Shown piece after piece: positions 1 through 56,044 of a stretch of DNA of 64,000 bases. Both the position numbers and the translations under genes were made by a program. Every line of letters starts with the position of its first letter. The stretch's first letter is position 1. The notes beneath the pieces are model-generated. The model was given only the letters and a program-made list of their open reading frames with translations. It made no database searches and had not been told where the DNA came from. The stretch is from Okamejei kenojei (lineage: Eukaryota). The stretch is taken from the NCBI GenBank assembly GCA_035221665.1, contig CM069159.1, positions 22,196,001-22,260,000 on the forward strand, in the 5' to 3' direction.

Positions 1-150
1 CCTGAAGATGAAAATGTAATAGTGTGTGGCTGATGGAAACCCCTGGGTTTAAATGAAAATAAAGATTGTTGTCAGGATGGCACTTTTCCTTGCACCTTTT
101 CTATAAGAGCATTGGATGCACACCAAAATAACAGTTTAGGCAACAATCAT

Positions 151-342
151 CTTCTTCTTTTCATGTCCATCTTGTTACAAATGTTGGCTTCGCTGTCATC
201 GTCCGTCCTGAAAAGGACACAAGCTTCCGGCAACAATCAGTGGAAGCCATCACGTCGTAATAGAAGATGGTGGTAGCAGAATTTGCTCAGGATGCTTCCA
301 GTTTCCAGCCCTGCGACGTAGCTGCTTCTGCTATGGGGCCTT
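151..342 (-). mobile_element. 5'-truncated non-LTR retroposon 3' end with (AAG)n tail, family unassigned
   Basis: Minus strand ends ...AAAAGAAGAAG; flanked by 12-bp direct repeat GGCAACAAT(C/T)AT at 139-150 and 343-354; richer in CpG than its flanks. Confidence 0.6.
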
Positions 343-2789: not shown

Positions 2790-3830
2790 TTGTCCTTAAG
2801 GAACATGGCGCAGCTGACTGACCAACCTGTCTTCTTGGTGACCACGACCAGATTGAACAGGATGTTAATAGGGCGCACTGTTGATGAAAGTTGGTTGACT
2901 CAGAAGGTTGGTTGTCATCTAAGACATAGGCTCTGGTTGATGGTAATTGCATTAGCTGGTTCTGACAGATATTCTGGGCTCATCCCAATAGTTTGGACAA
3001 GATCGGGAAGAGACGATTGTCACTGTACTCGGGATGTGGGGAGCCCAAGGTACATAGTTTTTATTTTTTTTATTTTTTATTTTTTTATTATTTATTTTCG
3101 TTAGAAGCAATTGTACAAAGAGAAAATAATCGACATAACAGTTATACAATTTTCGTACTGCTTCAGTTTTAACATTTTATAAATAACTAGATCGGAAAAA
3201 AGAAAAAGGAAAAAAGGGAAAGAAAGAAGAAAATAAAAAGAAAAGAAAGAATTTCAAGAAAAACACGAAAAAGAAAAAAGGAAAACCCCAGAACTAACGA
3301 AGGAGTGAAAGAAGCGGAGATATATTCCACTGCCCTTCCACACGCCCGCTCACCCGACCCTAGCGTCAGTTTTGAGTTTGTGTTCAACCATTATGTTGTT
3401 GAAGAAATTCAATAAAAGGAGACCATATTTTTTTTAATTGATCTGATTTGTCAGTCAAGCCTTATTTTTTCTAGATGTAGTGTCTCGGTCATTTCTGTGA
3501 TCCACATCTTCACTATGGGGGCGGTTATCTTTTTCCAGAATTTAAGTATGTTTTTTTCGCAGATATTAAACCATAGTCAAGGAAGCGTCTTTGAAATATC
3601 GTTAGATTAGGGCAGCCCTCTGACGTTCCTAATATTATTTGTTTTGAATCTGGCTCCAATTGAGTTTTATGTGTTTTAGAAATAATATTGAATATTTCCA
3701 TCCAGAAGTTTTGTATTTTTATACAGGATACAAAATAATGAGTTTGGGTGGCTTCTTGAAAATTACATTTATCACACCAAGGTACATAGTTAAAAAGGAC
3801 AGGCATTGTAGTGCCCTGCAACTCTGTGTA
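2790..3830 (-). mobile_element. Possible old Ingi/Vingi-like LINE remnant, interrupted by an L1
   Basis: Removing the L1 and one TSD gives TTMPVLFNYVPWAPHIP (cf. Vingi WLPVLxxIAPPHLRR); further on QQCALL..QSGRGH (cf. W.TLNR.RTGHGR). Degenerate. Confidence 0.3.
3060..3776 (-). mobile_element. L1-clade LINE 3' fragment (ORF2 CCHC knuckle, 3' UTR, A-rich tail)
   Basis: CDKCNFQEATQTHYFVSCIKIQNFW is the Cx2Cx8Hx4C motif of L1 ORF2; T-rich tail at 3060; perfect 15-bp TSD CCAAGGTACATAGTT at 3045-3059 and 3777-3791. Confidence 0.9.
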
Positions 3831-4267
3831 GGTTTTTACCTCTGTAGGTAACAACCCCTTTGGCCTCCCTCCCAAAACCTTCCCAAACCTTTATGCTGAA
3901 TCCCAAGGACTTAATATCAACTGTGCTGTGATTACGGTCCTTGGTCATTTTGCCACTCTGTTTCTTGGATATTGCAATTTGTTGCAAAGGCCAGGCGCTA
4001 TTCAGACTATTCATTACATTGTTAATCTAATCAACCCTAAACATTTCAATTTCATGGGTTGTTAAGTTTTCTTGTGGAAGTCAATGGCAAAGTCATAAAT
4101 AAACTTAAATTCAAGTGTTATATTGTGGTGATGGAATTATTGAAGAGGCAACAAAATATTGTGACTGTTGGAAATAAAAAAAAATAGAAAATTGTGGCAA
4201 GTCAGGCCACATTTCTTGGGAGAAAAGCAGTTGACGTTTCATATCATTGACTTGTGGTCAGAACAAG

Positions 4268-4457
4268 ATAGACACAAAATGCTGGAGTAACTCAGCGGGT
4301 CAGGCAGCATCTCTGGAGAAAAGGAATAGGTGATGTTTCAGGTCGGAACCCTTTTTCAGACTCAAGTGAAGAAGGGTTCTGACCTGAAATATCACCTATT
4401 CCTTTTCTTCAGAGATGCAGCCTGACCTGTTGGGATACTCCAGCATTTTGTGTCTAT
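4268..4457. mobile_element. Palindromic pair of Penelope-like terminal repeats (inverted arms of ~90 bp)
   Basis: ATAGACACAAAATGCTGGAGTAACTCAGCGGGTCAGGCAGCATCTCTG... is mirrored by ...CAGAGATGCAGCCTGACCTG...CCAGCATTTTGTGTCTAT; the same repeat lies next to the GIY-YIG element at 39150-40170. Confidence 0.8.
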
Positions 4458-5084
4458 TCAAGGCAATAAAATATCTGTGTGAGTTGCATTTCCTTTGGTT
4501 ATTGGCGTCCTTTACTTACCATCCATTATTAACTTTAGCTGAGTGGTTTCCGAGCACATGGAGAGTTCAGTGCAAACTATGCAGCTTAATCTCTTGTCTC
4601 TTACCTTCCTCCCTGCATTTACTCAGAAGGTACGCAACGTGTGTTCAGTCATTTCCTGCACCTTGCCTGGATGGAGTTGTGCTTGCACTGAGACTAACAT
4701 GAGAGCTGGCCTGATCCTGTGCCAAATGGAAATACTGTCTCCGTTTCCTATGAATATGAATAAAGTTTTTGAACTGTGCTTTACCTAAAGAGTGTTAAGG
4801 ATACTAATAATCAATATTAGGCAAGTTTTTGTCCTTCTACTTTATGGGAGATTTCTTCTCTACCTGAACACACCATAGGACACCTGCATTATGGTCTCTC
4901 ACTCAAACTCTCCACTATACCACATCTTGACCTCTGCTCCTCAACCCACTATAACAACGCTGGTTAGAATTCAAATTTACTTAATGTCTGTATTAGCTGA
5001 GTAGTTTGGGCCAGTATAAGTTGGTGTTGCGTTGGCCCAACATTTGTAAATGTGCCTATTTGTAACAAAGTTACATATTTTCTA

Positions 5085-5385
5085 CTGCTGCTTCACAGAG
5101 TGAGGGACCAGATTTGACCCTTACTCTGGATGGTGTCTGTCTGCAGTTTTCACATTCTCTCCGTAACCCCATTTGTTTCATTCAGGTACAAAGATGGGTT
5201 TTATTGGCTGCTGTAAATGACCCCTTACTGTGGATTAATGGCAAAAGAGAATGAAAGTGTAATGGATGGTCATGTGTGATGGAAATAATATGTTACAAGG
5301 CTGTAGAGAAATAAAGAAAGGAGAAGTGGGATTGCCCCGTGAGCCAGCATGAACCCGATGGGCTGAATTGCCTCCTTCTGTGAAA
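5085..5385 (+). mobile_element. Old HE1/V-SINE-type SINE
   Basis: Degenerate CTGCTTCACAG..GGGACCAG..TTTGACCCTTAC head, V-domain-like body and GATGGGCTGAATTGCCTCCTTCTG CR1-like tail. Confidence 0.55.
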
Positions 5386-6042
5386 AAAGGACCAAATGGC
5401 ATTAAGGTTTTATTCTCTCCTTTTTCCGTCTACTCTTACTCTTCTTTTGCCCTTTTTATATCTCATCCTTTTTTTCGATTCATTAACTTTCTTTGCTCAC
5501 TTTTGCCTAACTGTTGGAGTTCTGATAATTTCTTTAAAACTCCATAGCTCTCCCACAATCTACATGGGTTATGAAGGTTTGCTATTTAAACTATAGGGCC
5601 ATAAATTGCAACAATTGGCTCAAGAAATATGCTCCTAAATGTATTTTTAGTGTGCGGAAACATTGCTTTGTTTATTGCATATTAGGAGGCTTGTTTTTAA
5701 TTAATGTGACCTCTCTCCTTTCTTGAAAGATGATTTAACATAACTGGCTCTTTAAAAAATATATTATACTAATATTAAATATTTTAAAAAAAATTAAAAG
5801 TGAGTTGGGGTATTAATTGAAAAACAATCCTACTGTGCAGAAAACCTGCCGAATGCCTAATACAGTCCCTGCACTTGATGTTGTTATTAAGTACAATTTA
5901 TATATCCATCCAACATGTGGAACGACCTCACATCTGCCGTTCTGTGGATCCAATAATTGAGAAAATGGTTCATCAAGTCTTTCTCAGGACCAAAGACCTC
6001 CAAATATGTCTGGTCTTGATTCAAAACATTGACCAAACTTCT

Positions 6043-6357
6043 TTTAGTTTGGTTTAATTGAGTTTAGAGATACAATGCAGAAACAGGCCATTCGTCCCAC
6101 CGTGTCTGTGCCGACCAGTGATCGCCGTACACTTAAACTATCCATCACACACTAGGGACAATTTACAATTTTACCAAAGCCAATTAACCTACACATCTGT
6201 ATGTCTTTGGAGTGTGGGAGGAAACCGGAGCAGTTGGAGAAAACCCACGCAGGTCATGGGGAAAATGTACAAGCTCCGTGCAGACAACATCTAGGATCGA
6301 ACCCGTGGTTCTGGCGCTGTAAGGCAGCAACTCTACTGCTGCACCACCATACTGCCC
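6043..6357 (-). mobile_element. HE1/V-SINE-type tRNA-derived SINE, near full length
   Basis: Minus strand: GGGCAGTATGGTGGTGCAGCAGTAGAGTTGCTGCCTTACAGCGCCAGA (A box), GGTTCGATCC (B box), V-domain body, (CTAAA)n tail. Confidence 0.85.
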
Positions 6358-7173
6358 TTGCCTCCACAAAGGGGCTTCAAACTCCCAAAGCTGAGAGATT
6401 ATCAGGGTTTTACTGCGGATAAGTGCAAATATTTTTCTCTCAATAAAATATTTGCAGAGGAATAGATGGCTTGATGGGCCAAATGGCTTACTTCTCCGCT
6501 GAAACTATTTAATGATTTTCTTTGTTCACTCATTTAAATTGGAGTTTCTACTAAAACTGGACATAAAAATAAAGTTATTATTTTTTACTGGCTAAAATAG
6601 GAACCGAGCTGTCTGGTATTGCATGCTGTGATAACTGATGTGTTTGAGGGGAGCTGGTCCCTGGTGGTTTTGGGATAATTTATATTCACAAATGCACAGC
6701 AACTAGCATTGTTGCATAATTGTTTTCAGAAGCGGAATCAGTTTGTTGACCTTTAATTCCACATTTACACTGAGATACTTTGTTAATGGATCTCAGTAAT
6801 TATCCAGAAATTACTTTCTGACTTTATTGCCACAGGAAGCATGAAGCACATTTGAAATTAAATCTGATGAGAAACATTTGTTAATGATTCTACTTTGCAT
6901 ATTGGCTTCTTGTTGTTGTCGCAGAACCTTCTATTGTGTTCATTAATATAAAGTGGGAGTAAACCTAAAGACAAGGGATAGAAATTTACCTCATTAAATG
7001 CTAGGAGAAAAATTCCAAACCAACAATAATTAACATGGAAGATAATTAACAAGCAGGAATTTTGTTTGAGTCACGGGTACCAAGTTGAGTAGAAACAAGT
7101 GTTGCCTGTTTTGGCTGCACCGGTCAAGATGCTCACCAATAATCTCTGGAGATACAACAAACCAAAAATGTGT

Positions 7174-7476
7174 GGCATGGTGGCCCAGCAGTAGAGTTGC
7201 GGTAGAGTTGCTGCCTTACAGCGCCAGAGACCCAGGTTCGATCCTGACAATGTGTGGGTTTTCTCCGGGTGCTCCAGTTTCTTCCCACACTCCAAACATG
7301 TACTGGTTTGTAGGCTAATTGACTTGGTAAAATTGTCCCTTGTGAGTAGGATAGTGTTAATGAGCGCGGCGTAAATTGTCCCTTGTGAGTAGGATAGTGT
7401 TAATGAGCGCGGATCACTGGTTGGCGAGGACTCGGTGGGCCGAAGGTCCTGTTTCTGTAATGTATCTAAAATAAAA
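7174..7476 (+). mobile_element. HE1/V-SINE-type SINE with internal 40-bp tandem duplication
   Basis: A box region, GGTTCGATCC B box, V-domain; AAATTGTCCCTTGTGAGTAGGATAGTGTTAATGAGCGCGG occurs at 7330-7369 and 7373-7412. Confidence 0.85.
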
Positions 7477-7542
7477 TTTAAAAAGGTTGCAGATGCTGGA
7501 ATCTGGAGCAAGAAAGCAAACTGGTGGCAGAACTCAACAGGT

Positions 7543-9040
7543 TTTATTCCAAAACGCTATTCATCCTATAATCTGAGACGTCTATTCAATGTCATGTACT
7601 CAAAAAGAGTGAATGATATTGAACTAGCTGTCATATCCTTAGTTGCTGAAAAAGCATTTGACCAGGTTGAATGGCCATATTTATTTAAAATAATGCAGAA
7701 ATTTCAACTGGGGGATAGATTTTCCAAATGGGTAAAAATCATATACTCAAATCCAACTGCAAGAATATTAACAAATCAAATGTTATCAGCAAAATTTAAT
7801 CTCTTTAGGGGTTGTAGACAAGGATGCCCGTTATCACCATTACTATTTGCTCTGGTAATAGAACCATAAGCCGAAATGATTAGATCAGAACCAGAAATAT
7901 ATGGATATAATACTAAAACTACAACGAATAAAATATCTCTATACGCAGATGACATCTTAATTTATATTACAAAACTGGAGATTAGTATTCCCAATCTGTT
8001 TAATGTTATAACTAAGTTTAGTACATTTTCTAGGTATAGAATTAATTGGAATAAAAGTGAAATTATGCCTATAACTGGAATAAAATTAAATATATTAGAA
8101 CAATTCCCACTTAAAATAGTCACGGACAAATTCAAATATCTAGGAATTAATGTATCTAAGTCCTATAACTATTTAAATATAATTACCCTCAATTATTAAA
8201 TAAACTAAAAAAAAAAAATTATATTGGAAAACACTACCTATATCAATGATCGGTAGAATAAATGCTATAAAAATGATTTTTTTTTGCCACAATTGTTATA
8301 TTTATTTCAAGCCATCCCTTTATATCTCCCTAAAATGTTTTTTTTTTAAAAATAGATACTTTGGTTAATAGTTTTATTTGGGACTATAAAAATCATCGAA
8401 TAAGTAAAAAAAACATCTATGTAAATCTAAAATAAATGGTGGACTAGCACTACCAAATTTCTTATATTATTTCTGGGCAGTTCAGATTAAGAAAATGAAT
8501 TTTTGGTTGGTAAATTTAGATCATGAACCAAGCTGGCTAAAGATGGAAAGGGAAGACTGTTTGCCTTTTGATGTAGGTTCGATTCTTTTTGCACCAAGGG
8601 AAGTACAAAAAAAAAAGGTATGGTGACAACCCTATAATTCATAGCAATAGACGTATTTGGAAACACATAGTTAAGACCCTACATATGGATAATTTGTCAC
8701 TTTGTTTGCCAATTATGAATAATCCTTTGTTTAGGCCCTCTGTATTGGACAAGGGGTTTAGACATTGGAATGATTTAGGAATTAAAAGGATAGAACACCT
8801 TTACAAGAAAGGAACATTTCTTTCATTTCAAGAGTTACAGGATATCTATGGATTGCAGTCAAATAATATATTTAGGTATTTACAAATTAGAAACTATATT
8901 AAGTCAAATACGCAAGACTATAAAAATAGAAAACCATGATTATTAGATGAATTGTTTAATAAACACCCAAATACAGAAAAATTAATAGCGTATATATACA
9001 ATACTATTTTGGATAGGGAAATCCACACACATCTCTTGGA
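7543..9040 (+). mobile_element. 5'-truncated L1-clade LINE, disrupted reverse transcriptase ORF2
   Basis: GFIPKR, SLVAEKAFDQVEW, RGCRQGCPLSPLLFALVIEP, LYADDILIY, FKYLGI and GGLALPNF motifs; in-frame stop and frameshifts; degrades into low-complexity sequence after ~9040. Confidence 0.93.
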
Positions 9041-12000
9041 ACTTTCACATACACCGCGCATCCCCCACCCCCCATTCACTCCTCGCCATTCTAACCCTCC
9101 CTTTTCCCATCTCAACACTCTACACTCCCTTGACACGCTCCGAGTACCATCTCACCCACCCCTCACCAGTCCAGGCCATTAATCAACTCGCGCCACCCCC
9201 AATATCATGGGGGTATCACAAGTAAAAATAGGGTTTAAACAATCTCATACTAAATCCACGCATCGCCCAAAAGGTCCTCCCCTTCGGTCCCTCCACCCCT
9301 CTACTTCAACACCCACCCACTTCTACAAATTCACTCACCAGTACGCCAAGGCACGCACCCCAAAACAAGCCCTTACTAGCTAAAAGGACAACCCCCCGCC
9401 TGCTGAAACCCCAACAACCATCACACATCCCCCAAACCCCCTCCCCCCCTAAACCCCAACAACCCCTCCTCCCCTCCCAACCCCCCCCTCTCTCTAACCC
9501 AACCGCGTACACCACCCCCACCCAAACCCCAACCACCGCCACAAATAATCACCCGCCCCATACCCCCCCAATGTCCCGCACCCACAAAACCCCCCACCTT
9601 TGTCCAAGCTAAATATTACCACCCCCCAATACACCCCTACCCCCACCACCAGCCCAACAACAAGTCCCCTGCCCATCAACCTCCGCCTTTCAATACGTCT
9701 GTAAAAACACATGCATAGCACAATCCACCACCTAACAACGAATTACAACCCAGTACAACATCACCACCCTACTAACCCACCCCATACCCCCAGGGCCCCC
9801 CCTCACAATTCCCCTTGCCCCTGCCCCCCGTGGACCCCCACCCCCCGCAACCCCCCCAACCTCCATACTATCGGCGAACCACCTTAACCTTCATACCCCC
9901 AAAGACCCCCCCACACAACAAACCCCCCAACCCCACGACCCCCCACCCACCCCCACACCCCTCCCAAAAAAAAACACCATACACCAACAAATCACCACCA
10001 ACTAAACCCAAAGGTCTAAACCATTAAGTGCACCAGATCCACTTTCCCCCCCACTCACCAATACCGAAAATGGTGCCTTTGCCCCCCCCAACACACACCA
10101 CACCCATCTCACCCCCACCATTCCAACCCACACCACCACCCTCCCACCCCTATCAAATTATTGCCTTGTCCCCAGACAGACCACCCCCACCTCCCCCCCG
10201 CCCCCACCCCACCGCCCACAACTCACCCCACCACCCCGCACAACCCCCCCACCCCCACACGACGACCACCCTCACCCCCACCCCACAACACCACACCAGC
10301 CCGCCAACACACAACACCGACCCCCACCACCAACACACCACACGACCCTACTCACACCACCACCACACTCCACGACACACAACCCCCCCAACAAACACCC
10401 CCCCCCGCGCGCCAACCCCGCCCCATAACCCTACACCCACCAACCCAGCACAACAAACCCTCCCCACCCCCCACCACCACCCCACACCACATACATCCCG
10501 CCAACACACCCCAACCCCTACACCCCCAACCCCCCCCACCAAGTCAAACCCCCCACACCAACCCAACCCCCTCCACACCACACACCCACCCCCCAACACC
10601 ACCCGGCCCCAACAGCACCCCCTCCCCCCCCAACCAACGCCCCAGCAACGCCAACACCAAGACCACCCCACACCCCCCTCCCAACCCCTTAGTCCCGATT
10701 CCCAGAATGTCGCTGTGTGCTCCCCGAAGCCCCCCATATTCCCTTAATCCTCCGCAAAGTCCTACAGGCCCAATATGACCTCTTGTGCCCCAAGATATAG
10801 GTCTCTCCATATACAAAATCTTTGAAGGGGTAGCACTGTGTTCTTTGGCAATCACTAACAAAAAACACAACAAAACTCACTTGGGATACCACCATGACCG
10901 GGACTTCACAGGTGCTTAAGAAGAAACATCCCACCCAGAAAATTTTTTATTTTTATATTATAAATTAATTAATTTTTATATAATTTAATTTATTATTTTT
11001 TTATTTAAAGTTTTATTATATATTATGTTATTAATATTAATAAAATAAGAAAAAAAAACAAAAATATTAAAAGAAAAAAAATAAAAGAAAAAAAAAAAAA
11101 AAAATATAAAAACCTCAACCCCCCGGCTCCACAGCTCCCACCACCCCCGTACCCCCCACCCCCCCCTCTGGTCGTCGTTAAGCCCCCCCCCCCCCCCCCC
11201 CCCCCCCCCCACCCCCCCCCCCCCCCCCCCCCCCCCACCCCTCCCCCCCCGCCCCCCCCCCGGTCCCGAGCCCCCCCCCCCCCCCACCGCCCCCCCCCCC
11301 CCCCACATCCCACCTGCCGGCGAGCCCCCCCAAAACCCAACCAGCCCCCCCTCCCCACCCCCCCCTCCCCCCCGCCCCCCCCCCCCCACCCCCCCGCGCC
11401 CCCCCCGTCCCCCGACCGCACCGCACCTCCCCTCCCTCCCCCCCCCCCCCCCCCCCGCCCCCCACCCCCCCCCCCCCCCCTCCCCCCCCCCCCCCCCTCC
11501 GCCCTCCCCCCCCCCCCCCCCCCTCCCCCGCCCCCCCTCCCACCCCCCCCCCCAGGCCACCCCCCCCCCCCCGCACCCCCCCCCCCCGCCCCCCCACCCA
11601 CCCCCCCGTCCCCCCCCCCCACACCCCCCCGCCCTCCCCCTCCCCGCCCCCCCCCCCTCCTCCCCCCCCGCCCCCCCCCCCCCCGCCCTTCTCCCCAACC
11701 CCCCCCCCCCCCGCGCTCCTCCCCCCCCCCCCCACCCGGCCCCCCCCCCCCCCCCCCCCTGCCCCCCCCCCCGCCCCGACCCCACCCCCGCCGCCCCCCC
11801 CCCATCCTCCCCCAGCCCCCCCCCCCCAGCGACCCCCCCACGCTCCCTCCCCCCCCCCCCCCCCCCCCACGCCCACCCCCCCCCCCCCCCCCCCGCCATC
11901 CCCCCGTCCACCCCCCCACCCCCGGCCCCACTCCCCCCCCCATGTCCCCCCCCCCCACCCCGCCCGCCCCTCCCCCCGCCCCCCCCCCCCCGACCCCCCC

Positions 12001-13764
12001 AACCCCCCACCCCACCCCCCCCCTCTCCTCCCCGCCCCGCCCCCCCCTCGCCCGAACCCCTCGCCCCCCCCCCCTCCCCCTCACCCGCCCGCGCTCGCAC
12101 CCAACCCCCCATGCCCCCCCCCACACCCCCCCCCCTCCCCCCCCCCCCGCCGCACCCTCCCTCCCCACCCCCCACCCCCCCCGCCCCCTTCCTCCCCCCC
12201 CCTTTCCCCCCCCCGCCCGCACCCCCCCCACCGCCCCCCCCCCCCCCCTCCTCCCCCCCCCCCCCCCTCCCCCCCCCGCCTCACCCCCCCCCACCCCCGT
12301 CCTCTCCACCCCCGCGCCCTCCCCCCCCCCCCCCCCACCACCAGCACCCCCTCCACCCCCACCCCCCCCACCCCCCCCCCCCTCCCGCCCCCCCCCCCCC
12401 CCCCCGACCCAGCGCCCTCCCCCCCCCCACCCCACCCCCCTCCCCTACCCTCCCCCCCCCCCCCCCTCTCCCCCTCCCCCCCCCTCCCCTGCCCCCCCGC
12501 TCCGCCCCACCCACCACCCCCACCCCCCCCCCCACCCCCCCTCCCTCCCCCCCCCCTGCCACCACCCCCGCCCACCCCGCCCCCCCTCCCCCCGTACACC
12601 ACGGCCCCCCGCAACCGGCCCCCNNNNNNNNNNNNNNNNNNNNNNNNNNNNNNNNNNNNNNNNNNNNNNNNNNNNNNNNNNNNNNNNNNNNNNNNNNNNN
12701 NNNNNNNNNNNNNNNNNNNNNNNNNNNNNNNNNNNNNNNNNNNNNNNNNNNNNNNNNNNNNNNNNNNNNNNNNNNNNNNNNNNNNNNNNNNNNNNNNNNN
12801 NNNNNNNNNNNNNNNNNNNNNNNNNNNNNNNNNNNNNNNNNNNNNNNNNNNNNNNNNNNNNNNNNNNNNNNNNNNNNNNNNNNNNNNNNNNNNNNNNNNN
12901 NNNNNNNNNNNNNNNNNNNNNNNNNNNNNNNNNNNNNNNNNNNNNNNNNNNNNNNNNNNNGCCCCCGTCCTCCCCGTCCCCCCCCCCCCTAGCCCCCACC
13001 CACCCCCACCCTCGTCCCCCCCCCCCCCCTCCCCCCCTCCCCCGCCCCGCCCCCACCCCCCCCCACACCCCCCCCCCCCCCCACACCCCCCTATCGCCCC
13101 TCCCACCCCCATACACCCAACCCCCGTCCCGCCCGCCTCCCCTCCCCCCCCCCCCCCCCCCCCCCACCCCCCCCCCTACCCCCCCCCGCCCCGCGCCCCC
13201 CCCGCACAGCCCTCCCCCCCCCCCCCCCTCAGCCCCCCCCCCACCACAACTCATCCCACCTCACACGCCACCCCCCCCTCACCACTTCAACCAAATCCCA
13301 TATAACAAAACCCCAAACGCCTGGCCCATATACACCCCCCCCCACACAAAATAAAAAAACCACACACATCACCACCAAATAAAACCAACCCACAACACAC
13401 TCCCCCGTCCACACACCCCCACAAAAAAAACACACAACACAAACACCTACCACACACACACCACCCCCAACAGGACAAAAAACCCACCCACGAACAACAA
13501 TCCAACCCCACACAACAACCAAGCGAGAACAAAAAACCAAAAAACACTCAAACCACACCCCACCCCACGCCGAAACACCTCCAACAAACTACTCCCCAAC
13601 TGACACCAACAACAATCCACACCCTAATTAAAAAATATTACAAATCCCCCCCTCGAAGAACACCCGGCGGCACCGCCCCACCCCACTAAATTAACAGTCC
13701 ATGTTTCAAGCCCCAATGACCACCCCCACAACAACACCCCCACCCCACCCCCCTTATCTTCTTC
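9040..13764. other. C/A-rich low-complexity sequence around a 337-bp N gap (12624-12960); probable assembly artefact
   Basis: Long aperiodic poly-C runs grading out of L1 sequence on both sides of an N run; no stable repeat unit. Confidence 0.85.
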
Positions 13765-14122: not shown

Positions 14123-14220
14123 TCTGAAGAAGGGTCTCAACCCGAAACCTCACCCATTCCTTCTCTCCAGAGATGCTGCCTGTCCTGCTGAATTACTCCA
14201 GCATTTTGTGTCTACCTTCA
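14123..14220 (+). mobile_element. Penelope-like terminal-repeat fragment beginning at the hammerhead core
   Basis: TCTGAAGAAGGGTCTCAACCCGAAACCTCACCCATTCC...CCAGCATTTTGTGTCTACC. Confidence 0.8.
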
Positions 14221-16155: not shown

Positions 16156-16903
16156 TATTTTAAAAAATGGTCGCAGGGATTCATTCATATTCTTACCTCA
16201 TTGCCTGATTTGCTACTTTCTTAAATTAATCTGATTTGGCTTCAAATGAAATCTGTAATTCCTGGAGGAAGGAGCCAGGGTTAAAAAAAAAGTCATGCCT
16301 TTTATCACTACTCCGTTAAAATATCTACATCTTCCACTGCAACAGCAGAACTACAAGGTGATGCATTTCTTTGAAGGTCAAACGTTCAGTTTTCTAGAGG
16401 CTAAATTAATTCTCCCAATGATGAACTTTGCATAGAAGTTAGCCACTTGAAGAATTCTGATGGATTGTAAACTCACTTAGCGAAGTCAAGCCTGTAGTGA
16501 TATTATCCCATTAAAATGTCAGTGAAGGCAGGATATTCAAATCAGGCATCTCTGCAGCGAGGACAAGACTGGATAATTATAGACTCAACATGCCACCGCT
16601 GGTACCTCTGGCTTGTTTTTTAGCTCCTCATGTGACAAATGGGCACTGCTTAGCAATTCTGATTAGCGTAAAATGACATTTAAAATGCTTGCAGAAGCTC
16701 TGTTGCAGAAATGTTCTTTCAAAGTCTCTTAGCCTCTGACAGGGCCAGAGCACATTTTAATTTATATAACATTTCCTGAGCAATGTTTTATATAGTGGAA
16801 GCTTTCTGCTAGACTGTAACCTTTTGAGAGGACATATAAAGTAGAGATTCAGGCTGAGCGCAAACAGGAGGTATTGCATCAGCCACAATGTTAAATAGTC
16901 TGT

Positions 16904-17082
16904 AGACACAAAATGCTGGAGTAACTCAGCGGGACAGGCAGCATCTTCAGTCTGAAGGAGGGTCTCAACCCGAAATGTCACCCATTTCCTCTCTCCAGAG
17001 ACGCTGCCTGTCCCACTGAGCTCCTCCAGCGTTTTGTGTCTACCTTCGATTTGAACCAGCATCAGCAGTTCTTTCCTACATG
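16904..17082 (+). mobile_element. Penelope-like short insertion with inverted 5' arm
   Basis: ~43-bp inverted arm, then TCTGAAGGAGGGTCTCAACCCGAAATGTC...; 15-bp TSD TGTT(A/G)AATAGTCTGT at 16889-16903 and 17083-17097. Confidence 0.82.
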
Positions 17083-18384: not shown

Positions 18385-20093
18385 TAGGCAGGCAGAGTTA
18401 TATGGTGCTGTCATTTTCATCTTCCCTCTGCAATGCTAATGCCGTTAAACAATTGTTGGTGTGTTATTGTTTTCTGATAAGCAATTGATTCTGACAGAAA
18501 GCAAATACAGAAATAATGGATCCTTTGCAATTTCCAAACTATTTATTAGATTGCTCGATGATCTGCATCTGGAACAGCAATCCTGTAAAGCATGGTTGTC
18601 TGAGCTTTATGTCTCTGACAGTAGTTAATACAAAACATGGAGCTTCCAGAGCACTGTGAAGTTTCAATCCTATGGCCCTATTATCTTATGTAAATCTCAA
18701 GAACCTAGAGTCCTCCTTTCACGGTTCGTCTGCCAACAAAACAGCACCACAAACCGTTGGCCTTTTCAAGCCAGCCGTGAATATTATGTACTTGGGAAAT
18801 TGTAACTGGCTGTTTATGGACAGTGAAGTGAATGGTGTCTGTCGGCCATATCATTCAGCTTGGAATGAGTTCTGGTGACAGGAGAATATTATCCCTCCCA
18901 TAATGTGCGGTTACCTGATGTGTAAAGGAGAGAAAATCTGCAATGCTGTGAATCTGAATCAACCTTGATCTGTCCTTCCCCAAATTCTTGGAAATGTAAT
19001 CGGGATCGAGGCTGTCTCGTTATTATCTGTTGACTCGTGTTCTAAGATATAATGGTCCAATTAGGCTTTAATCGTGTAATTTGCTTATTAAACCCAAGCG
19101 AGAAGATATTAGGCGTTAATTATTACTGGCCTTGATTTTTATAACAAATTGTATGGAAATAATGATCAGCTGAACAGAATAAGAGAACAGTTCTCCCAGG
19201 CTGTCGTTGTGTGGGAGGTATGCATTACTTGAGTGCATGTTACGTTTGGCAAGACAAAAGTGGGACTTTCTGTGCAGATGTTATATCACCCCATAAATAC
19301 CCTCACATAGTTTCTTCTCTGTTTAAAGTCTCAACGCTTAGGCCTGAATTTCAATGTGTTCTTACAATTAATGTCAACAAAGTAATGAAACATTCCTGGA
19401 TTTTATGTAAGTATATGTGCTAATCGCCGCTTTTTGATTTGGTCCGAGAAAGAATGTCTTTATTCCTTGGAGATAATTTGGCCAGTTTAAAATTGTCTAT
19501 TGTTTTCTCTGTGAGGCAATTTTACTTTCTTCTTAATTAAGAAGAAAGTAAAGTTGACTCACAGATGTTTCAGTAATTTTACCCTGGAATAAGGAGCAGA
19601 AAATGGCATATGTTGGATAATTATCATCCATTGCCTGTGATAAACATCCCTTTGAAATTTGACTTCTGCTTCTGTAATGTGGTTCAATAATGTAATCTGT
19701 TCTAACCTGACATGTTGCAGCCTAATTATATCTTAGAATCTGTCCCATAATTGTTAGCAATGATATTCCAACCTCCAATCGTGTCAGCTCATAAAATAGA
19801 CCCCAAATAGAACGTTTTACAGCACTTCATGGAAGGGTTTTGGGAATTTCTAACCGATGAACAGATTAACTAAAATTTGTCAGAATGGACTAGTAAGAAA
19901 GTGTCCAGTGCTTTTCATAAATATTATATATTTATTTTCATATAAATTGGCAATGTGCGCAAAAACCACACTACTGGATGTGAGAAGAAGCGTAAATTCA
20001 TCGTGCAGCTGAGCTCTCCAGTCAGGGTTTGACATCTGCTTGACACTGATAAAGTTGATTTCACCAAATATGACTGTAAAGGCAATACAGTGA

Positions 20094-25955: not shown

Positions 25956-27692
25956 CTTACGGTAACAATTAACCTACTAGCACATCTCAGGAATGTGGAA
26001 GGAAATGGGAGCACCTGAGGAAACCCAGACTTTTACTGGGAGGAGGTGCAAAGGACAGATTGTATCTAGGTCAGAGAATCTGTGAAAGAAGTTATGCTAT
26101 GTCAAGAATATGTTGCAGAAAGACCACAGCTCAATAGTGTTCAGAAATAAAAGAAAACATCTCAAAGAGAAGGCCTCAGGTTAACATGGAACCTTAACAT
26201 TGTCTCAAAGATGGAACTGTGTCATAGGTGGTTGAAATTGTGTAAAAAAAGGCACAATGTGGAACAAAATAATCATCTATCCATGAATTATTTAGCATCA
26301 GTTGTTCAAAAGTATCCACTGTCTTACTATCACTGGCTCACAAATGGGGCAAAATGGGAATAAACTCAGGAGAATGAGACATGATGGGACAAAGCAATCT
26401 ACTGATACCTTCTTCACAGATTCACACACTTCATCCCAAATTAAACTTAGGAATTAAAGGACAACAAAGTTAAATAAAGCACACTAAAACATCATTGTAT
26501 CAATTGACAGAGAGCTTCAGGCTGTTGCACAGATTGCAGTTATCTTTTCTTAAACTAATGACTTTTGACATTTCCTCCTTCTGTTGTACATTATTATTTA
26601 AGTTCAAAGATGAATTAATAATAAACAAGGAAGGGCAATATACATTGTCATTTTAAATCCTTGACATTTATTATTAACATTATTTTTACCAGTGTTTTTT
26701 CAAAAATGTGTCCTTTCGTTACGTAATTTCTTTGGCAATCTTTACACTTAACTTAGTGTCCCCTAATCAAGTCCATATTTCTGTAGTTAGTCATTTAGTT
26801 ATATAACTTGCAATTTTTATTTTTGTTCATTCCTTGTCTATCTTGCATCTCTTCCAGGTAATCCGGCAGTCCGCTGAATCATTCCCTTAACTATTTGAAT
26901 ATTACATGGTTGGGGGAAGAAGAGGGAGGCTAGGAGCCTATGTAGGATATATAGTGGTAAATATTCTACAGATAAGGCTTTGGTACAGCACCATTTTGTT
27001 ATGATCACACACTTTATGGAAAAAAAATCACAACAGTAATACCTGAAGTTGATTCAATTAACCCTCTAGTTGCCATTTTGCAGGCAATGTCATTAAATGT
27101 TAACTGCATAATGCCTGTGTTGGGAAGCCAGAAACAGATTCCCCATTTAAGATCATTGTAAAACTTTTCTGGTCACTTAGCACGTGCAGTGATGCCACGG
27201 CAGTGTATGCTTCTGCCTTTAAAAGTAAAAAAATGATTGCATCACATTGCTTAAGTTTATAAACCAGAGAGAAAACTACAAAATTATTTTATTTTTTTAT
27301 TTTAATTAACCAGTCATTCTCCCCTCCCCCTGAAAAAAGAATTTAGAAAATAGAAATTATGGACTTGTTTCTACACTTTCAGCAATGATATATTTCACTA
27401 AATGTTGGACAAAAGCATTAGCATCAAGAGGGTTAATGTCTCAGCAAAACTGTGCTTACAATTACTTCTTCAAATGTTTGCTATTGTAATATACAAGGCA
27501 TTGATATTCTAAGTGAGGCATTGATAAATAAAACTATTAAAGCTCATGAACTACATCTTTTGGAGGAGATGATTACTACAACACCTCAGCTGCAGCACTG
27601 AGATGTGATTGTGGGCACCAGCAATGGGAAAGATTTTATCCAAATCAGTCACTATCACAAAAGAAGACTTAAATTACACTGTTCAGATATTG

Positions 27693-27781
27693 TCTGAAGA
27701 AGGGTCTCAGCCCAAAACATCACCCATTCTTTCTCTCCAGAGATGCTGCCTGTCCCGCTGAGTTACTCCAGCATTTTGTGT
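27693..27781 (+). mobile_element. Penelope-like 89-bp insertion starting at the hammerhead core
   Basis: TCTGAAGAAGGGTCTCAGCCCAAAACATCACCC...; perfect 14-bp TSD CTGTTCAGATATTG at 27679-27692 and 27782-27795. Confidence 0.85.
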
Positions 27782-30319
27782 CTGTTCAGATATTGGTTTA
27801 GGGTACACGATTTGCTATTTTAAAGGAGTCCACATTCAACTACATTTCTAAAAGATTTGCACTTAGATTCCAATGGAGCAAGTTTCTCATTAAGTTGGAG
27901 GAAGAAAGACATTGTCTGCATTTAAGACTTGAAACTGGGTCAATTGTGATAGGCTGCAGCAAAAATTAGCACCAATGTGCACTTTATATCTAGAACCACC
28001 TCAATCTTTTATTCCAAACACATACTGTAAAATATGGCCCATATATTGTTCAGATAGCATTATCATAACCTAAGATATCTCTCCCTTTGATCAATATGCA
28101 GTAATTCAACAGCTGGTCCAGAATAATTCAAGTTGGTTTCCCAAAGAGAGAAATATAATACTGCATATCGCCTGTATTAAAATTAATTCCACAATTACAT
28201 TAGAAAGACAGCACACATGTTTTTTTTCTGGTTTATGCAGACTGTATATCAAAGCACAAAGGCATTAAAAACCAAATACATGTCCAAATATAAATTAATG
28301 TTTCTGCAAAAATTATACAAATATCTGTAAACCAACTTTTTAAACACTTGTTAAAAACATTTAAAAACAATTACTATATTCAATTAAACATAGGATATCT
28401 TTACTGGATGTCCCTGGCTTTATGTAGACCAAGCTTTGAAATCTCTGCAGTCTATAGGTATAATTTGCACCAAATTCCATCCTTTAATTCCAAAGAATAA
28501 ATATACCATCCAGTCAAATTCCTCAGAAGTGGCTGTGGCATGAATATTAAACCAGTTACAGATTATAAAGTGTATCCCAGTATGGATCATTATTGGTATT
28601 ATGGTTATAATACATGGATGGAGTCAGATAGGTGCCATATTTATTCTTTAACTTTATCAGTCTTTAAAGGCTCTAAAACTATTAAATTCAGGATTCCTTA
28701 CATTGAGTCTACACCATCAATATCAACGATATCTAGATACTTGAATCCTGTTTGTTGTATTGCAAAAGTACATCACTGTCATTTCTTCTATACATTTGCA
28801 AGGAGACCTGCCCAGTTACGATACAAAGGGCTCTCATCACAATGTACTCCTAACAAATGGCAAACAGTTGGAAATTTTCACAATGGTTGATTACAATCTG
28901 AGTTTTTGAGCTAAGCCCTTACAAACTGACAAAAAATCCCAGGTGATTTAAAATAACAACTGGAGTTTTCCTAAAATACTCATAAAATTCTTGAGGTTTT
29001 TTAAAATAATCAAATACAGCCTTGATGACTCAGAAAAGGTGATATTTCTTTTTTTTTTAGACATATTGGAATACCAACAAGCACAAACTAGATTAATTAG
29101 TAAACTAACTTAATTGAAAACCAACATGTATAATTAAACCCTGTATTAAACATTTTATGTAATTGGTGTAAATTGGTGTAGATGATAGTATTTGTATTAG
29201 TGAACTTACGTTTTAAACAATTGTTAACAAGAAATCTTTACCTTTTTTCATGGTTTTATCAATAACTTGTTTCACTAATCTTCATGAGAAAATGATATAA
29301 CAGCAATGACTGTACAATATATTTTATAGTAACCCTAATAGGACAGGCAGCAAGGTGTCAAGAGTAACTTTTGGCCTGTGCTAACCAGTTAATAATCTCG
29401 GTCTAAATGCCTAACTCTTTTAATGAGGAGATGCAGTGTAATTGGTATCATTCATGGCATGGAGATGGAGATGGAGGAAGAGAAATATCAGTTGGCCTAG
29501 TTTCCATTCTTACTGTATATTTTTAATGGGTGTGAAACCTCATATTTACATCAGTCAATAGTGGTATCTGTCCAGACGCAGGTAAATAAGCTATATTCAT
29601 GGCCTGCCAGCTTTAGCAGTGGGGCACTATCCTGCACAAACTTCATCAGAAGAAGCTCCATCAGGGTGAAGAGAAGCCGATTAAATAAATGAAGCCCCAT
29701 CAAAAAGCAAGGTTTCTAATTGACCACTACCAAGATCAAAATGAGCTTTCTTCAATACTGATTGTAACAGTGAGAATACTGTGATTATATTTCAAGCGAT
29801 ATGCTAAGAGATTGTCCTTTGAAGTTGACTGAAGAGATCAGCAAATGAGGCATATTTACATCTAGTTGGCTCTTTACCTCTCTCGACAAGTGTTTCTTTT
29901 TAGAACAAGTAGGAAGGATTCCTATTTAGCATACCCATCCTTGTAAACTTCACTGCTCCTCAATCTCTTGCTTCTAATGATGGTCATAATTTACACACAG
30001 AATTGCTCCTCACCACTGAAAAAGAGCAGTGAAAGTTGAGCAACAAAAGCCTTGACTGGATGTCAGCTCATTATTGGTAGCATGGTGGGCCAGGGTGCAT
30101 ACCACTGCTTCTGTCCATTCACAGTTCAAAAACAGAAAGAGGCTGTAACAACTGCCAGACTAAAAATGATGGTGTAAATAACAATAGAGGTCAAACCTCT
30201 TAGCTCACTGTCGCAACCTGTCTGATTTACCATGTAACCAGTGGCACCATAGTTTACAAATATACTGGCAAAAGTACTGGCATAAACTGGAGATGCGTAA
30301 TAACCTTGGTATCTGAAGG

Positions 30320-30667: not shown

Positions 30668-30868
30668 AAGAACAAAGTACTGGAGGAACTCTGTGGGCCA
30701 GGCAGCATCTGTGCTGGGATAGGACAGATGACCTTTTGACTTGGGATTCTTCAGTCTGAAGAGGGGTCCAGACCCAAAATGTCCATAGATGCTGCCTGAC
30801 CTGCTGAGTTCGTCCAGCTCCTTGGATTTTGCTCAAGATTCCAGCCACTGCAATTTCTTGTCTCCGAA
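30668..30868. mobile_element. Penelope-like inverted terminal-repeat pair with degenerate hammerhead core
   Basis: Inverted arms meet at TTCTTCAGTCTGAAGAGGGGTCCAGACCCAAAATGTC. Confidence 0.7.
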
Positions 30869-38696: not shown

Positions 38697-39017
38697 GAAG
38701 GACACAAAGTGCTGGAGTAAATCCGCGGGTCAGGCAGCATCTCTAGAGAACATGGGTAGGTGATGTAAAGAAAGAGCTGCAGATGCTGGTTTAAATCGAA
38801 GGTAGACACAAAATGCTAGAGTAACATGATCACATTCGATCAGCCATGATCACAAAATACTGGAGTAACTCAGCAGGACAGGCAGCATCTCTGGAGAGAA
38901 GGAATGGGTGACCTTTCGGCTCTGAATGTCTGAAGAAGGGTCTTGACCCGAAATGTCACCCATATCTCTCCAGAGATGCTGCCTGTCCTGCTGAGTTACT
39001 CCAGTATTTTGTGTCTA
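38697..39017. mobile_element. Cluster of nested and inverted Penelope-like terminal repeats
   Basis: Three minus-oriented CACAAA(A/G)T(G/A)CT(G/A)GAGTAA starts followed by a plus-oriented copy beginning CTGAAGAAGGGTC. Confidence 0.8.
38930..38957 (+). ncRNA. Minimal hammerhead ribozyme core, best-preserved copy (Penelope-associated)
   Basis: CUGAAGA, an extra A, stem II GGGUC/GACCC, GAAA, UG, UC cleavage site; matches the CUGANGA...GAAA...UH consensus. Stem I is only ~2 bp. Confidence 0.6.
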
Positions 39018-39029
39018 TGATAGATGATG

Positions 39030-39140
39030 TTAGTTTAGTTTAGTTTGTTATTGTCATGTGTACTGAGGTACAGTGAAAAGCATTTTGTTGTGTGCTATCT
39101 AATCAGCAAGAAGACTATACATGATTATGATCAAGCCATC
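39030..39140 (-). mobile_element. Rex1/Babar-type 3' tail
   Basis: (TTTAG)n then TTATTGTCATGTGTACTGAGGTACAGTGAAAAGC, an antisense match to 21410-21468. Confidence 0.55.
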
Positions 39141-39149
39141 TTATATATC

Positions 39150-40170
39150 TCTGGAGAGCATCGCTGGAGAGATGGAATGGGTGACGTTTCGGGTCGAGAC
39201 CCTTCAGACTGATGTCAGGGGAGGGGGTGGGACAAAGATAGAATGTAGTCGGAGACAGTAAGACTAGTGGGAGAACTGGGAATGGGGACAGGATAGAGAG
39301 GAAAGCAAAGGCTATCTGAAGTTAGAGGTCAATGTTTATACCGCTGGGGTGTAAACTACCCATGCAAAATATGAGGTGCTGTTCCTCCAATTTGCGCTGG
39401 GCCTCACTCTGACAATGGAGGAGGCCCAGGACAGAAAGGTCAGATTGGGAATGGGAGGGGAAGTTGAAGTGCTGAGCCACCGGGAGATCCGGTAGGTCAA
39501 GACGGACTGAGCAGAGGTGTTCAGCGAAACAATCGCCGTGCCTGCGCATGGTCTCACTGATGTAGAGAAGTTGACACCTAAAACAGCAGTAACAGTAGAT
39601 CAGGTTGGAGGAGGTGCAAGTGAACCTCTGCCTCACTTGGAAAGACTGTTTGGGTCCTTGGATGGAATCGAGGGGGGAGCTAAAGGGGCAGGTGTTGCAT
39701 CTTCTGCGGTTGCAGGGGAAAGTACCTGGGGAGGGGATGGTTTGGGTGGGAAGTTACGAACTGACCAAGGTGTTTCGGAGCAAACGGTCCCTGCAGAAAG
39801 CAGAAAGGGGTGGAGATGGGAAGATGTGGGCAGTACTGGGATCCCGTTGGGGGTGGCAAAACATTTGGAGGATTATATGCTGTATGCGACGGCTGATGGA
39901 ATGGAAGGCGAGGACAAGGGAGACTCTGTCCTTGTTATGAATGGGGGGAGTGGGAGCAGGAGTAGAGCTGCGGGATATCGAGGAGACCCTAGTGAGAGCC
40001 TCATCCATAATGGAAGAGGAGACCCCCGTTTCCTAAAGAATGAGGACATCTCCGATGCACTGGTATAGAACACCTCATCCTGAGCGCAGATGCAGCGTAG
40101 ACAGAGGAATTGGGAGTAGGGGATAGAGTTTTTACAGGAAGCAGGGTGGGAAGAAGTGTAGTCAAGAAAT
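39150..40170 (-). mobile_element. Penelope-like retroelement 3' half (RT thumb and GIY-YIG endonuclease), Neptune-type, decayed
   Basis: Minus strand FLDYTSSHPASCKNSIPYSQFLCLRCIC (PLE thumb) and FTCTSSNLIYCYCCFRCQLLYISET..R...F.EH...VAQHFN..E...I..GIN (GIY-YIG); followed by the terminal repeat with hammerhead-like core at 39183-39207. Confidence 0.92.
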
Positions 40171-54790: not shown

Positions 54791-55931
54791 TGCTCTGGGC
54801 TTTGAATGCTGACTTTCCCAGCGGTAGGTTCACAAAGAAAATATCTCTCATCCTGCTGCAAAGCATCTATTAAATATGTCCCCTTCCAATTTCTTGACTA
54901 TATGGTTACAAAATGTTTTGTTCCTGCTGCTGCAGTGCACAATTAGTGCCCCGTCAATAAAGCATAGATGAATTGAGCCGATAAATGGCTTAATCAGAGG
55001 TGACTTTCTTTTTCTATATTTTCTCTTGCTCAGAATAGAAATGTGCATTTATTGCAAAATGGCTTCAGTTTCCAGCATCACAACATCTCGGGCACTGTTC
55101 ATGATAAATCATGCTGAAAGCAATCTTTTATCGGGTCAAATGTACTAATTAATGAGGAACTGATAAATGGATCCATGTGGGGAACAGAATGTATTGAAGT
55201 TTTATCTTCAAGGCCTAAATCAAATATGTGCAGCCAGGATGTGATCAATGGGTACATCGAAGGATATGTTGTCACTATGACTAAATTCTCATGGCAACCT
55301 GCCCCGAGATCGAAAATCAAACATCTCCGATGCCATTTAATGTTCTCTCAGAGACATACTGCATCAAATGGTCAATGCAGGAATAGCTATTTGACCTTTT
55401 GTGTCCCCTTCATCGTTCAACAAGACCATGGCTGATCTTTTACTTCAGTGCTACCTTCCTGCAGTAATCAAAAATCTTTTGATTTCCCCAATATGCCTGA
55501 ATCTACCAATCTGTGCCTCGATATAGTCAGTGACTAAGCTTTCACTGCTCTTTTATGTAGATAATTGAAAGGATTGACCAAATCCTTGATGAAGAGATTC
55601 AGTGTCCTTTCAGTCTGGAAGCTTCGAGCCCTTAAGTTGAGATTCTGACCCTTGTTTCTGGACACCGCACTATCCCAGCATCTATCTTACAAAGTCTAAA
55701 GGAAATGTGTACAATAGGATCATCTCTTATTCTTCTAAACTCTGGGGAGTACAGGCCAGTCTATTTATTCCTCCTTGGGATAAAGCCTACCATTCCAGAA
55801 ATCAACTTTGTGAGCCTTTGTTGCGAGTACATCGGTTCTCAGGTAAGGAGACCAGATGTGTAAATGATATTCAAAGAGCCGTCTCATAAGGGGCTGATAT
55901 ATTTGCATTAAAACATTTTACTCTTGTGCTC

Positions 55932-56044
55932 GACCCGAAACGTCACCCATTCCTTCTCTCCAGAGGTGCTGCCTGTCCCGCGGAGTTACTCCAGCATTTT
56001 GTGTCTACCTTCGATTTAAACCAGCATCTGCAGTTCTATCCGAC
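55932..56044 (+). mobile_element. Penelope-like terminal-repeat insertion inside the CR1
   Basis: Begins GACCCGAAACGTCACCC; perfect 14-bp TSD TTACTCTTGTGCTC at 55918-55931 and 56045-56058. Confidence 0.85.

What the first reader, a model, noticed from the sequence alone, without database searches (positions are those of the whole stretch)
38930..39207. Minimal hammerhead ribozyme in the Penelope terminal repeat, dispersed across the window
Seen: the consensus CTGAAGA-A-GGGTC-TC-GACCC-GAAA-CG-TC, with copies at 38930-38957 (core intact), 14124-14151, 16952-16979, 27694-27721, 30756-30783, 4331-4394 (both strands) and 55932-55944 (partial). A further copy at 39183-39207 (minus strand, 3-nt deletion) lies in sense downstream of the GIY-YIG ORF. 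Known: the hammerhead core is CUGANGA...GAAA...UH, and Penelope-like elements carry minimal hammerheads whose palindromic stem III (here ACGU) permits dimeric activity. Inference: a high-copy ribozyme-bearing retroelement system with autonomous and very short non-autonomous members. Stem I is only ~2 bp, so cleavage is not guaranteed.
Basis: partly seen in the sequence, partly recalled or inferred. Interest (0 to 1): 0.7.

Follow-up and report, generated by a model that had tools for sequence, protein, structure and literature searches.

The report
Penelope end-pieces carrying a minimal hammerhead
This is the end-piece of a known kind of jumping gene (a Penelope-like element) that carries its usual stripped-down, predicted self-cutting RNA motif; the very many short copies begin just ahead of that motif rather than at its cut site, so they are likely by-products copied from uncut RNA, and the finding is ordinary in kind.

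Summary
The motif is real. It is the minimal type-I hammerhead of an endonuclease-bearing Penelope-like element (Neptune/Nematis-type linker), a published class. The genome holds 49,828 exact copies. Corrections: the interval holds two unrelated insertions on opposite strands, so no cis dimer can form. The 39183-39207 copy has a broken core, and only 38930 keeps both the core and a pairable stem III. Copy ends ignore the cut site: 186 of 395 5' ends lie within about six bases of the core's first base, 6 lie near the cut, and 0 of 68 3' ends fall there. 3' ends cluster at two sites, the known 'tail'. Head-to-head pairs join one short and one long end in 48 of 61 cases. The short copies are likely run-off cDNAs from internal priming on uncut RNA, not a cleavage-defined non-autonomous family. 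Cleavage is untested. This scan has already reported the family many times on other DNA of this genome.

The parts
38930..38957 (+). Minimal type-I hammerhead: core 38930-38936, extra A 38937, stem II 38938-41 with 38946-49, GAAA 38950-53, stem III A-T-G-T 38953-56, predicted cut after 38957; 2-bp stem I from 38928-29 with 38958-59
   Evidence: sequence; alignment with related families
38928..39020 (+). Right arm of a head-to-head short insertion; starts 2 bases before the core and ends at the first (short, about +91) 3' site
38768..38922 (-). Left, inverted arm: starts at about +16 (no core), runs to +87 at 38851, then after an interruption of about 25 nt continues through the tail (38825-38768, long 3' site). 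No TSD found around the pair
38701..38766 (-). Adjacent older, core-less piece of a related subfamily (+24 to +93)
39157..40145 (-). Separate 5'-truncated Penelope-like copy: RT end, zinc linker and GIY-YIG region (aa 614-883 of P0001, frameshift near 40017, YIG read as YIS), 3' UTR, hammerhead; its 5' end lies beside a (TA)n run
39183..39207 (-). Hammerhead of that copy, with a 3-nt deletion inside the catalytic core (predicted dead)
14124..14219 (+). Solo short copy; core intact, stem III pair lost
16903..17075 (.). Head-to-head pair; core of the + arm (16952) altered
27692..27783 (+). Solo short copy flanked by a 14-bp target-site duplication; GAAA altered
30672..30824 (.). Old head-to-head pair; cores altered
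4268..4457 (.). Head-to-head pair; both cores altered
55929..56040 (+). Solo copy truncated inside stem II, with tail and a 14-bp target-site duplication

Best explanation
The motif is the minimal hammerhead in the pseudo-LTR of an endonuclease-bearing Penelope-like retrotransposon, and the short copies are likely by-products made when the element's own enzyme primes inside the 5' leader of an uncut RNA and runs off that RNA's likely start just ahead of the core. Shown: the hammerhead lies about 110-140 nt after the ORF stop and about 165 nt before the ATG of the next unit; copy 3' ends cluster at +84..99 and +117..136; copy 5' ends cluster at the core's 5' edge; 9-16-bp target duplications flank many copies. 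Inferred: a transcript starts at the initiator-like YCAGT; the protein nicks the target and primes at one or both internal sites; priming at the 5'-proximal sites gives a cDNA of about 95 or 135 nt; priming on both target strands, one site each, gives the head-to-head pairs such as 38768-39020. The ribozyme is kept by selection in the master lineage but likely cleaves only with protein help or as a dimer, and it does not set the ends of inserted copies; most genomic copies are decaying passengers.
For: Position: hammerhead upstream of the ATG in 25 of 30 N-terminal loci; tandem units about 3.96 kb apart. Selection: 30 descriptor hits in 25 of 80 related loci, against 1 reversed and 1-3 shuffled. 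On 15 chosen rows the covariation score is 0.79 against 0.19 shuffled (0/500); stem I is 75% paired and stem III 97%, and neither was part of the descriptor. Ends, in an unbiased 1.26-Mb sample: 186 of 395 5' ends lie at the core edge, 6 of 395 near the cut; 0 of 68 UTR-bearing copies end at the cut; 189 and 158 of 395 3' ends lie at the two sites. TSDs in 42 of 221 non-inverted copies, against 0 of 221 in the control; where found, the insertion edge is mostly within 14 nt of the core, with no host exon between. Pairs: 48 of 61 classifiable pairs join a short and a long end, 29.5 expected, p about 1e-6. Literature: the anole PLE primes at two internal sites on both strands, uses uncut RNA, and its hammerhead needs protein (PMC11167929).
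Against: No raw RNA reads were available, so neither the RNA start nor cleavage is shown (hold contigs only). The 5' edge is graded over several bases, not one. An excess of G before the start (13 of 23 non-C bases before AGT; background 19%) could be cap copying but is confounded by short fold-backs. In D. virilis the same place is a 3' splice site rather than the start (PMC4209133, PMC2377424), and this family's upstream sequence also looks like an acceptor. 179 of 221 non-inverted copies had no adjacent TSD. Folding prefers other structures by about 5-8 kcal/mol, and the predicted dimer does not form the hammerhead.
Confidence: 0.7

Rival explanations
1. The short copies are a non-autonomous family (retrozyme- or SINE-like) whose RNA is cut out by the hammerhead and mobilised in trans.
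For: About 445 pieces per Mb, TSDs, and retrozymes derive from PLE pseudo-LTRs (bioRxiv 10.64898/2026.07.22.740005, parts 1-2 read). Two copies share the same extra 5' bases and a variant, which hints at some re-amplification (L143, L197).
Against: Ends avoid the cut site. Copies are solo or head-to-head rather than tandem units. Junctions of the 75 pairs are heterogeneous, as expected if each pair is built afresh. Short copies carry the same subfamily variants as long ones. A ribozyme-headed repeat in the same window does start at its predicted cut in 10 of 10 copies examined (best hits, so biased to full length).
Confidence: 0.12
2. The 5' edge is a 3' splice site (pyrimidine tract, then CAG|T); copies come from spliced RNA, or the enzyme stops at a splicing intermediate.
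For: An acceptor-like sequence precedes the core in all subfamilies seen. The D. virilis intron ends at helix I (PMC4209133). Base use before the core (G 104, A 76 of 130) resembles exon ends (exon consensus recalled).
Against: TSD-bounded copies hold no upstream exon. No GT..AG joint to that site appears among the joints shown for the contigs (tables cut, 16 and 20 rows hidden). Related families lack the AG.
Confidence: 0.1
3. The enzyme simply stalls at RNA structure or at the C-rich tract upstream of the core on long read-through RNA; no RNA start is involved.
For: 49 of 395 copies continue well upstream, so longer templates or template jumps exist; the upstream tract is C-rich.
Against: The stop comes after the enzyme has already passed the hammerhead stems and before the C-rich tract, which fits a stall poorly (inference).
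Confidence: 0.08

Closest known systems
Minimal hammerheads (min-HHR) of metazoan PLE pseudo-LTRs (Cervera and de la Pena 2014, PMC4209133; main text parts 1-2 of 4 read, supplements not seen)
   Same: Core, extra base between positions 9 and 10.1, G10.1-C11.1, palindromic stem III without a loop, location in the pLTR, mostly single dispersed copies.
   Different: Stem I is 2 bp (like their D. virilis variant) and stem II is 4 bp. Copy number is far higher: 49,828 exact here, against about 4,000-9,000 motifs in coelacanth and Xenopus. The parts read name no cartilaginous fish; their supplements could.
PAc/Poseidon of the green anole (Frangieh et al. 2024, PMC11167929; parts 1-2 of 4 read)
   Same: Two internal priming sites that give the tail, extension on both target strands, a protein-assisted hammerhead, uncut RNA as template, no RNA ends at the cut site.
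   Different: PAc is Poseidon clade, with its ORF starting inside the hammerhead. Here the ATG lies about 165 nt downstream, both 3' sites are in the leader, and the protein has a zinc linker.
Neptune/Nematis EN+ PLEs and inverted-pLTR insertions (PMC8557442 and PMC3846280; passages read)
   Same: CX2-5CxxC linker, CCHH endonuclease, partial tandems, inverted 5' copy, a 30-40-bp tail at one end, TSDs of about 10 bp, microsatellite targets.
   Different: Here the ORF-less end-pieces dominate overwhelmingly and share a fixed 5' edge; the passages read do not describe that edge.
Non-LTR retrozymes (bioRxiv 10.64898/2026.07.22.740005; parts 1-2 of 5 read)
   Same: Type-I hammerhead, pLTR-related, protein-less, reported in one chondrichthyan.
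   Different: Defined as tandem units each with a hammerhead; these copies are solo or head-to-head, and their ends are not set by cleavage.

Membership tests
min-HHR (type I) of PLEs | CUGANGA ... GAAA ... UH core | tested here: met
   38930-38957; invariant in 15 of 15 aligned rows (rows were picked by this core)
min-HHR (type I) of PLEs | Extra base after A9, and G10.1-C11.1 closing stem II | tested here: met
   G-C in 15 of 15; the other three pairs change on both sides (stem II pairing was required by the descriptor)
min-HHR (type I) of PLEs | Palindromic stem III | tested here: met
   Family ACGT; relatives ATAT and AGCT; one relative unpaired; the window copy has ATGT
min-HHR (type I) of PLEs | Helix I of 4-5 bp | tested here: not met
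   2 bp in all three subfamilies folded; many relatives have 3-4 bp; a 2-bp helix I is described for D. virilis
min-HHR (type I) of PLEs | Self-cleavage as a dimer or with protein | not testable with these tools
   only contigs available
Rfam hammerhead families | Score against a curated model | tested here: not met
   no hammerhead hit at E<=10 in the window
EN+ Penelope-like element | RT with a C-terminal GIY-YIG endonuclease in one ORF | tested here: met
   110 full-length relatives, most with PF00078 and many with PF01541; RT and endonuclease motifs in L039; the Pfam GIY-YIG hits are below cut-off
EN+ Penelope-like element | Partial tandems forming pLTRs, a tail, and TSDs | tested here: met
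Neptune or Nematis clade | CX2-5CxxC linker before the endonuclease | tested here: met
   C-x4-C-x2-C in the window ORF and L039; feature per PMC8557442
Neptune or Nematis clade | Placement in an RT tree with named references | not tested
   no named reference proteins in hand
Autonomous active element | Intact full-length ORF | tested here: inconclusive
   0 of 6 full-length regions intact; longest open frame 780 aa; not searched exhaustively
Non-LTR retrozyme | Short tandem units with a hammerhead in each, and ends at the cut site | tested here: not met
   solo or head-to-head copies; ends avoid the cut; no genome-wide tandem search was run

The most novel reading that the evidence does not exclude
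The roughly one million short copies are integrated 'strong-stop' cDNAs: the element primes in the leader of a capped RNA that starts just before the hammerhead, and the run-off cDNA either inserts, pairs with a second cDNA primed on the other target strand, or jumps by homology to the 3' pseudo-LTR. That jump would regenerate partial tandems in a retrovirus-like strand transfer and give the missing mechanism for pseudo-LTR renewal; starting there would also leave the 5' hammerhead without enough stem I to cut.
Probability: 0.3. Interest if true: 0.6.

Novelty: new member of a known kind. Interest (0 to 1): 0.25.

Why it matters
As a ribozyme find it is ordinary: one more family of a published class. 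Its value is as a footprint record. With several percent of a genome made of these end-pieces, the fixed 5' edge and the short/long pairing of ends give a genomic read-out of how Penelope-like elements prime and join their cDNA, and they argue that the hammerhead does not set insertion ends. Both hammerhead function and pseudo-LTR renewal are called unresolved in the papers read (PMC8557442, PMC2377424).

Tried and rejected
Rfam: no hammerhead hit. Pfam on the window ORF: none. Scan of viral contigs: 26 pattern matches, none a relative. RNA evidence: all 24 runs listed were contigs, and only 3 were on record as RNA. Seven runs were laid over two calls (45, 60); they cannot show starts, ends or strand, and no splice joint to the core edge was among the rows shown. 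Host-exon capture: distant TSDs were rare. Cap-derived G: suggestive but confounded. TSD around the 38768-39020 pair and around the long copy: none convincing (best 7 bp in TA-rich DNA). Per-position conservation within the genome's copies mostly shows CpG decay and was not used as evidence of selection. Seven U3-A8 variant hits and one further hit (L264) in related loci were left out of the alignment as likely chance, as were 9 redundant members of one family. L039 looked like a tandem but is a truncated copy beside an independent short copy. Luense et al. on PLE hammerhead dimers was not held and is known here only through a review's passages (PMC6765202). A search for 'hammerhead ribozyme' + 'cartilaginous fish' + 'retrotransposon' gave 0 papers, and no listed PLE paper contained 'strong stop'; these searches cover open-licence papers only.

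Full report
Observation. Every listed copy is present. The 38930 motif finds 8 sites in the window and none in 30 shuffles. The window lies in a 2.76-Gb animal genome; earlier scan notes call it a skate, which I did not test. The consensus pattern has 49,828 exact matches, and the control has 0. A profile of the first 100 bases finds 562 pieces in 1.263 Mb (120 ten-kb stretches at round coordinates plus the window; reversed control 0). That is 445 per Mb and 3.6% of bases, or about 1.2 million pieces if extrapolated, each arm of a pair counted once. Rfam has no hammerhead hit.

What the interval holds. It holds two insertions. 38768-39020 is a head-to-head pair: the + arm begins two bases before the core at 38930 and ends near +91; the - arm begins near +16, lacks the core, and reaches the tail after a short interruption. 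40145-39157 on the - strand is a 5'-truncated element with the end of the RT, the zinc linker and the endonuclease. Its hammerhead has lost three core bases. The two hammerheads lie on opposite strands and cannot pair as a cis dimer. In the sample, 51 of 395 well-aligned copies pass an intact-motif test.

The parent element. The ORF's relatives in the genome are followed after about 110-140 nt by the motif in most of 40 loci. A 479-aa piece finds 110 full-length RT-endonuclease proteins at up to about 50% identity. Walking 5', 25 of 30 loci with the ORF start carry the same motif about 165 nt before the ATG, and tandem units repeat every 3.96 kb. This is the pseudo-LTR layout of Penelope-like elements. 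The C-x4-C-x2-C linker points to Neptune or Nematis; no tree was built. None of 6 full-length regions had an intact ORF.

Is the hammerhead under selection? In 80 metagenome loci encoding related proteins, a descriptor found 30 hits in 25 loci, against 1 in reversed and 1-3 in shuffled DNA; 23 have the standard core. Those checked on the coding strand mostly sit about 95-300 nt after the ORF or 260-780 nt before it. I aligned 13 of them (about 9 families) with 2 own copies. The covariation score is 0.79 against 0.19 shuffled, with slid controls at or below 0.15. Stem II pairing was demanded by the descriptor, so it is not independent. Stem I (75% paired, all four pairs with two-sided changes) and the stem III palindrome (ACGT, ATAT, AGCT; one exception) were not demanded. 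The fold is therefore real across the clade. In this family stem I is only 2 bp, and the energy model prefers other folds, for monomer and dimer alike.

Do copy ends show cleavage? No. Of 552 aligned pieces, 395 passed a score filter and lay away from stretch edges. Of these, 186 begin at the core's 5' edge and 6 near the cut. A uniform spread of the 355 starts from -30 on would give about 30 and 18. Of 68 copies carrying 3' UTR, none ends at the cut. 3' ends cluster at +84..99 (189) and +117..136 (158), the 30-40-bp tail known from PLEs. 42 of 221 non-inverted copies have a duplication, mostly of 9-16 bp, against 0 in the control; two rows were listed twice, and two of the matches are internal element repeats. 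125 of 395 pieces belong to head-to-head pairs. Of 75 pairs, 61 could be classed, and 48 join one short and one long end, against 29.5 expected. As a contrast, a different repeat at window 150-340 starts at the first base of its HDV-like ribozyme in 10 of 10 best-hit copies.

Mechanism. The anole element primes at two internal sites, extends both target strands, uses uncut RNA, and needs protein for hammerhead cleavage (PMC11167929). Applied here, priming near +93 or +130 on an RNA that likely starts at the initiator-like sequence just before the core gives the short copies; one site used on each strand gives the pairs; priming in the downstream pseudo-LTR gives the long, mostly truncated copies. 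Four of the 30 ORF-start loci also begin at the core edge. The RNA start is inferred. The initiator consensus is recalled, no raw reads were available, and a splice acceptor or an enzyme stall remains possible.

Comparison and verdict. It works like, and by the tested features is, a minimal PLE hammerhead (PMC4209133), with a short stem I like the D. virilis variant. It does not meet the retrozyme definition. The scan has reported this family repeatedly in the same genome: 60 notes fit the look-up, and the 8 shown include the fixed 5' edge and twin priming. I reached those points before the look-up, and such notes are not independent support. Supplements of the papers were not read and may list cartilaginous-fish examples. 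Verdict: a new member of a known kind, interest 0.25.

Noticed in passing
window 150-340, minus strand: A repeat of about 190 bp that starts at the first base of an HDV-like ribozyme resembling the mammalian CPEB3 ribozyme (27.6 bits here; 2 of 9 other copies pass Rfam's cut-off of 35), ends in an AAG-rich tail and shows target duplications; 1,620 first-look candidates in the genome. No CPEB ZZ-domain match lies on this contig. Earlier scan notes link such heads to Vingi elements.
   Followed up: partly
G000:C5:64,990,900-64,999,300 (L311, L312): Three same-strand hammerheads spaced 3,962 and 3,969 bp in a full-length tandem, with an inverted copy in front; the natural place for a cis dimer.
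   Followed up: partly
window about 7393-8939, plus strand; 3525-3890, minus strand: Broken LINE reverse-transcriptase pieces (RVT_1 hits at 7393-8199); the piece at 3525-3890 had no Pfam hit.
   Followed up: no
window about 10000-13400: Long C-rich low-complexity stretch around the N run at 12624-12960; possibly poor-quality sequence.
   Followed up: no
window 19498-19575: Long AT-rich hairpin with weak miRNA-model hits far below cut-off; likely an inverted repeat.
   Followed up: no
L075 (G000:C10:7.35 Mb): A short tandem repeat of variable copy number lies inside the PLE ORF after the N-terminal domain.
   Followed up: no
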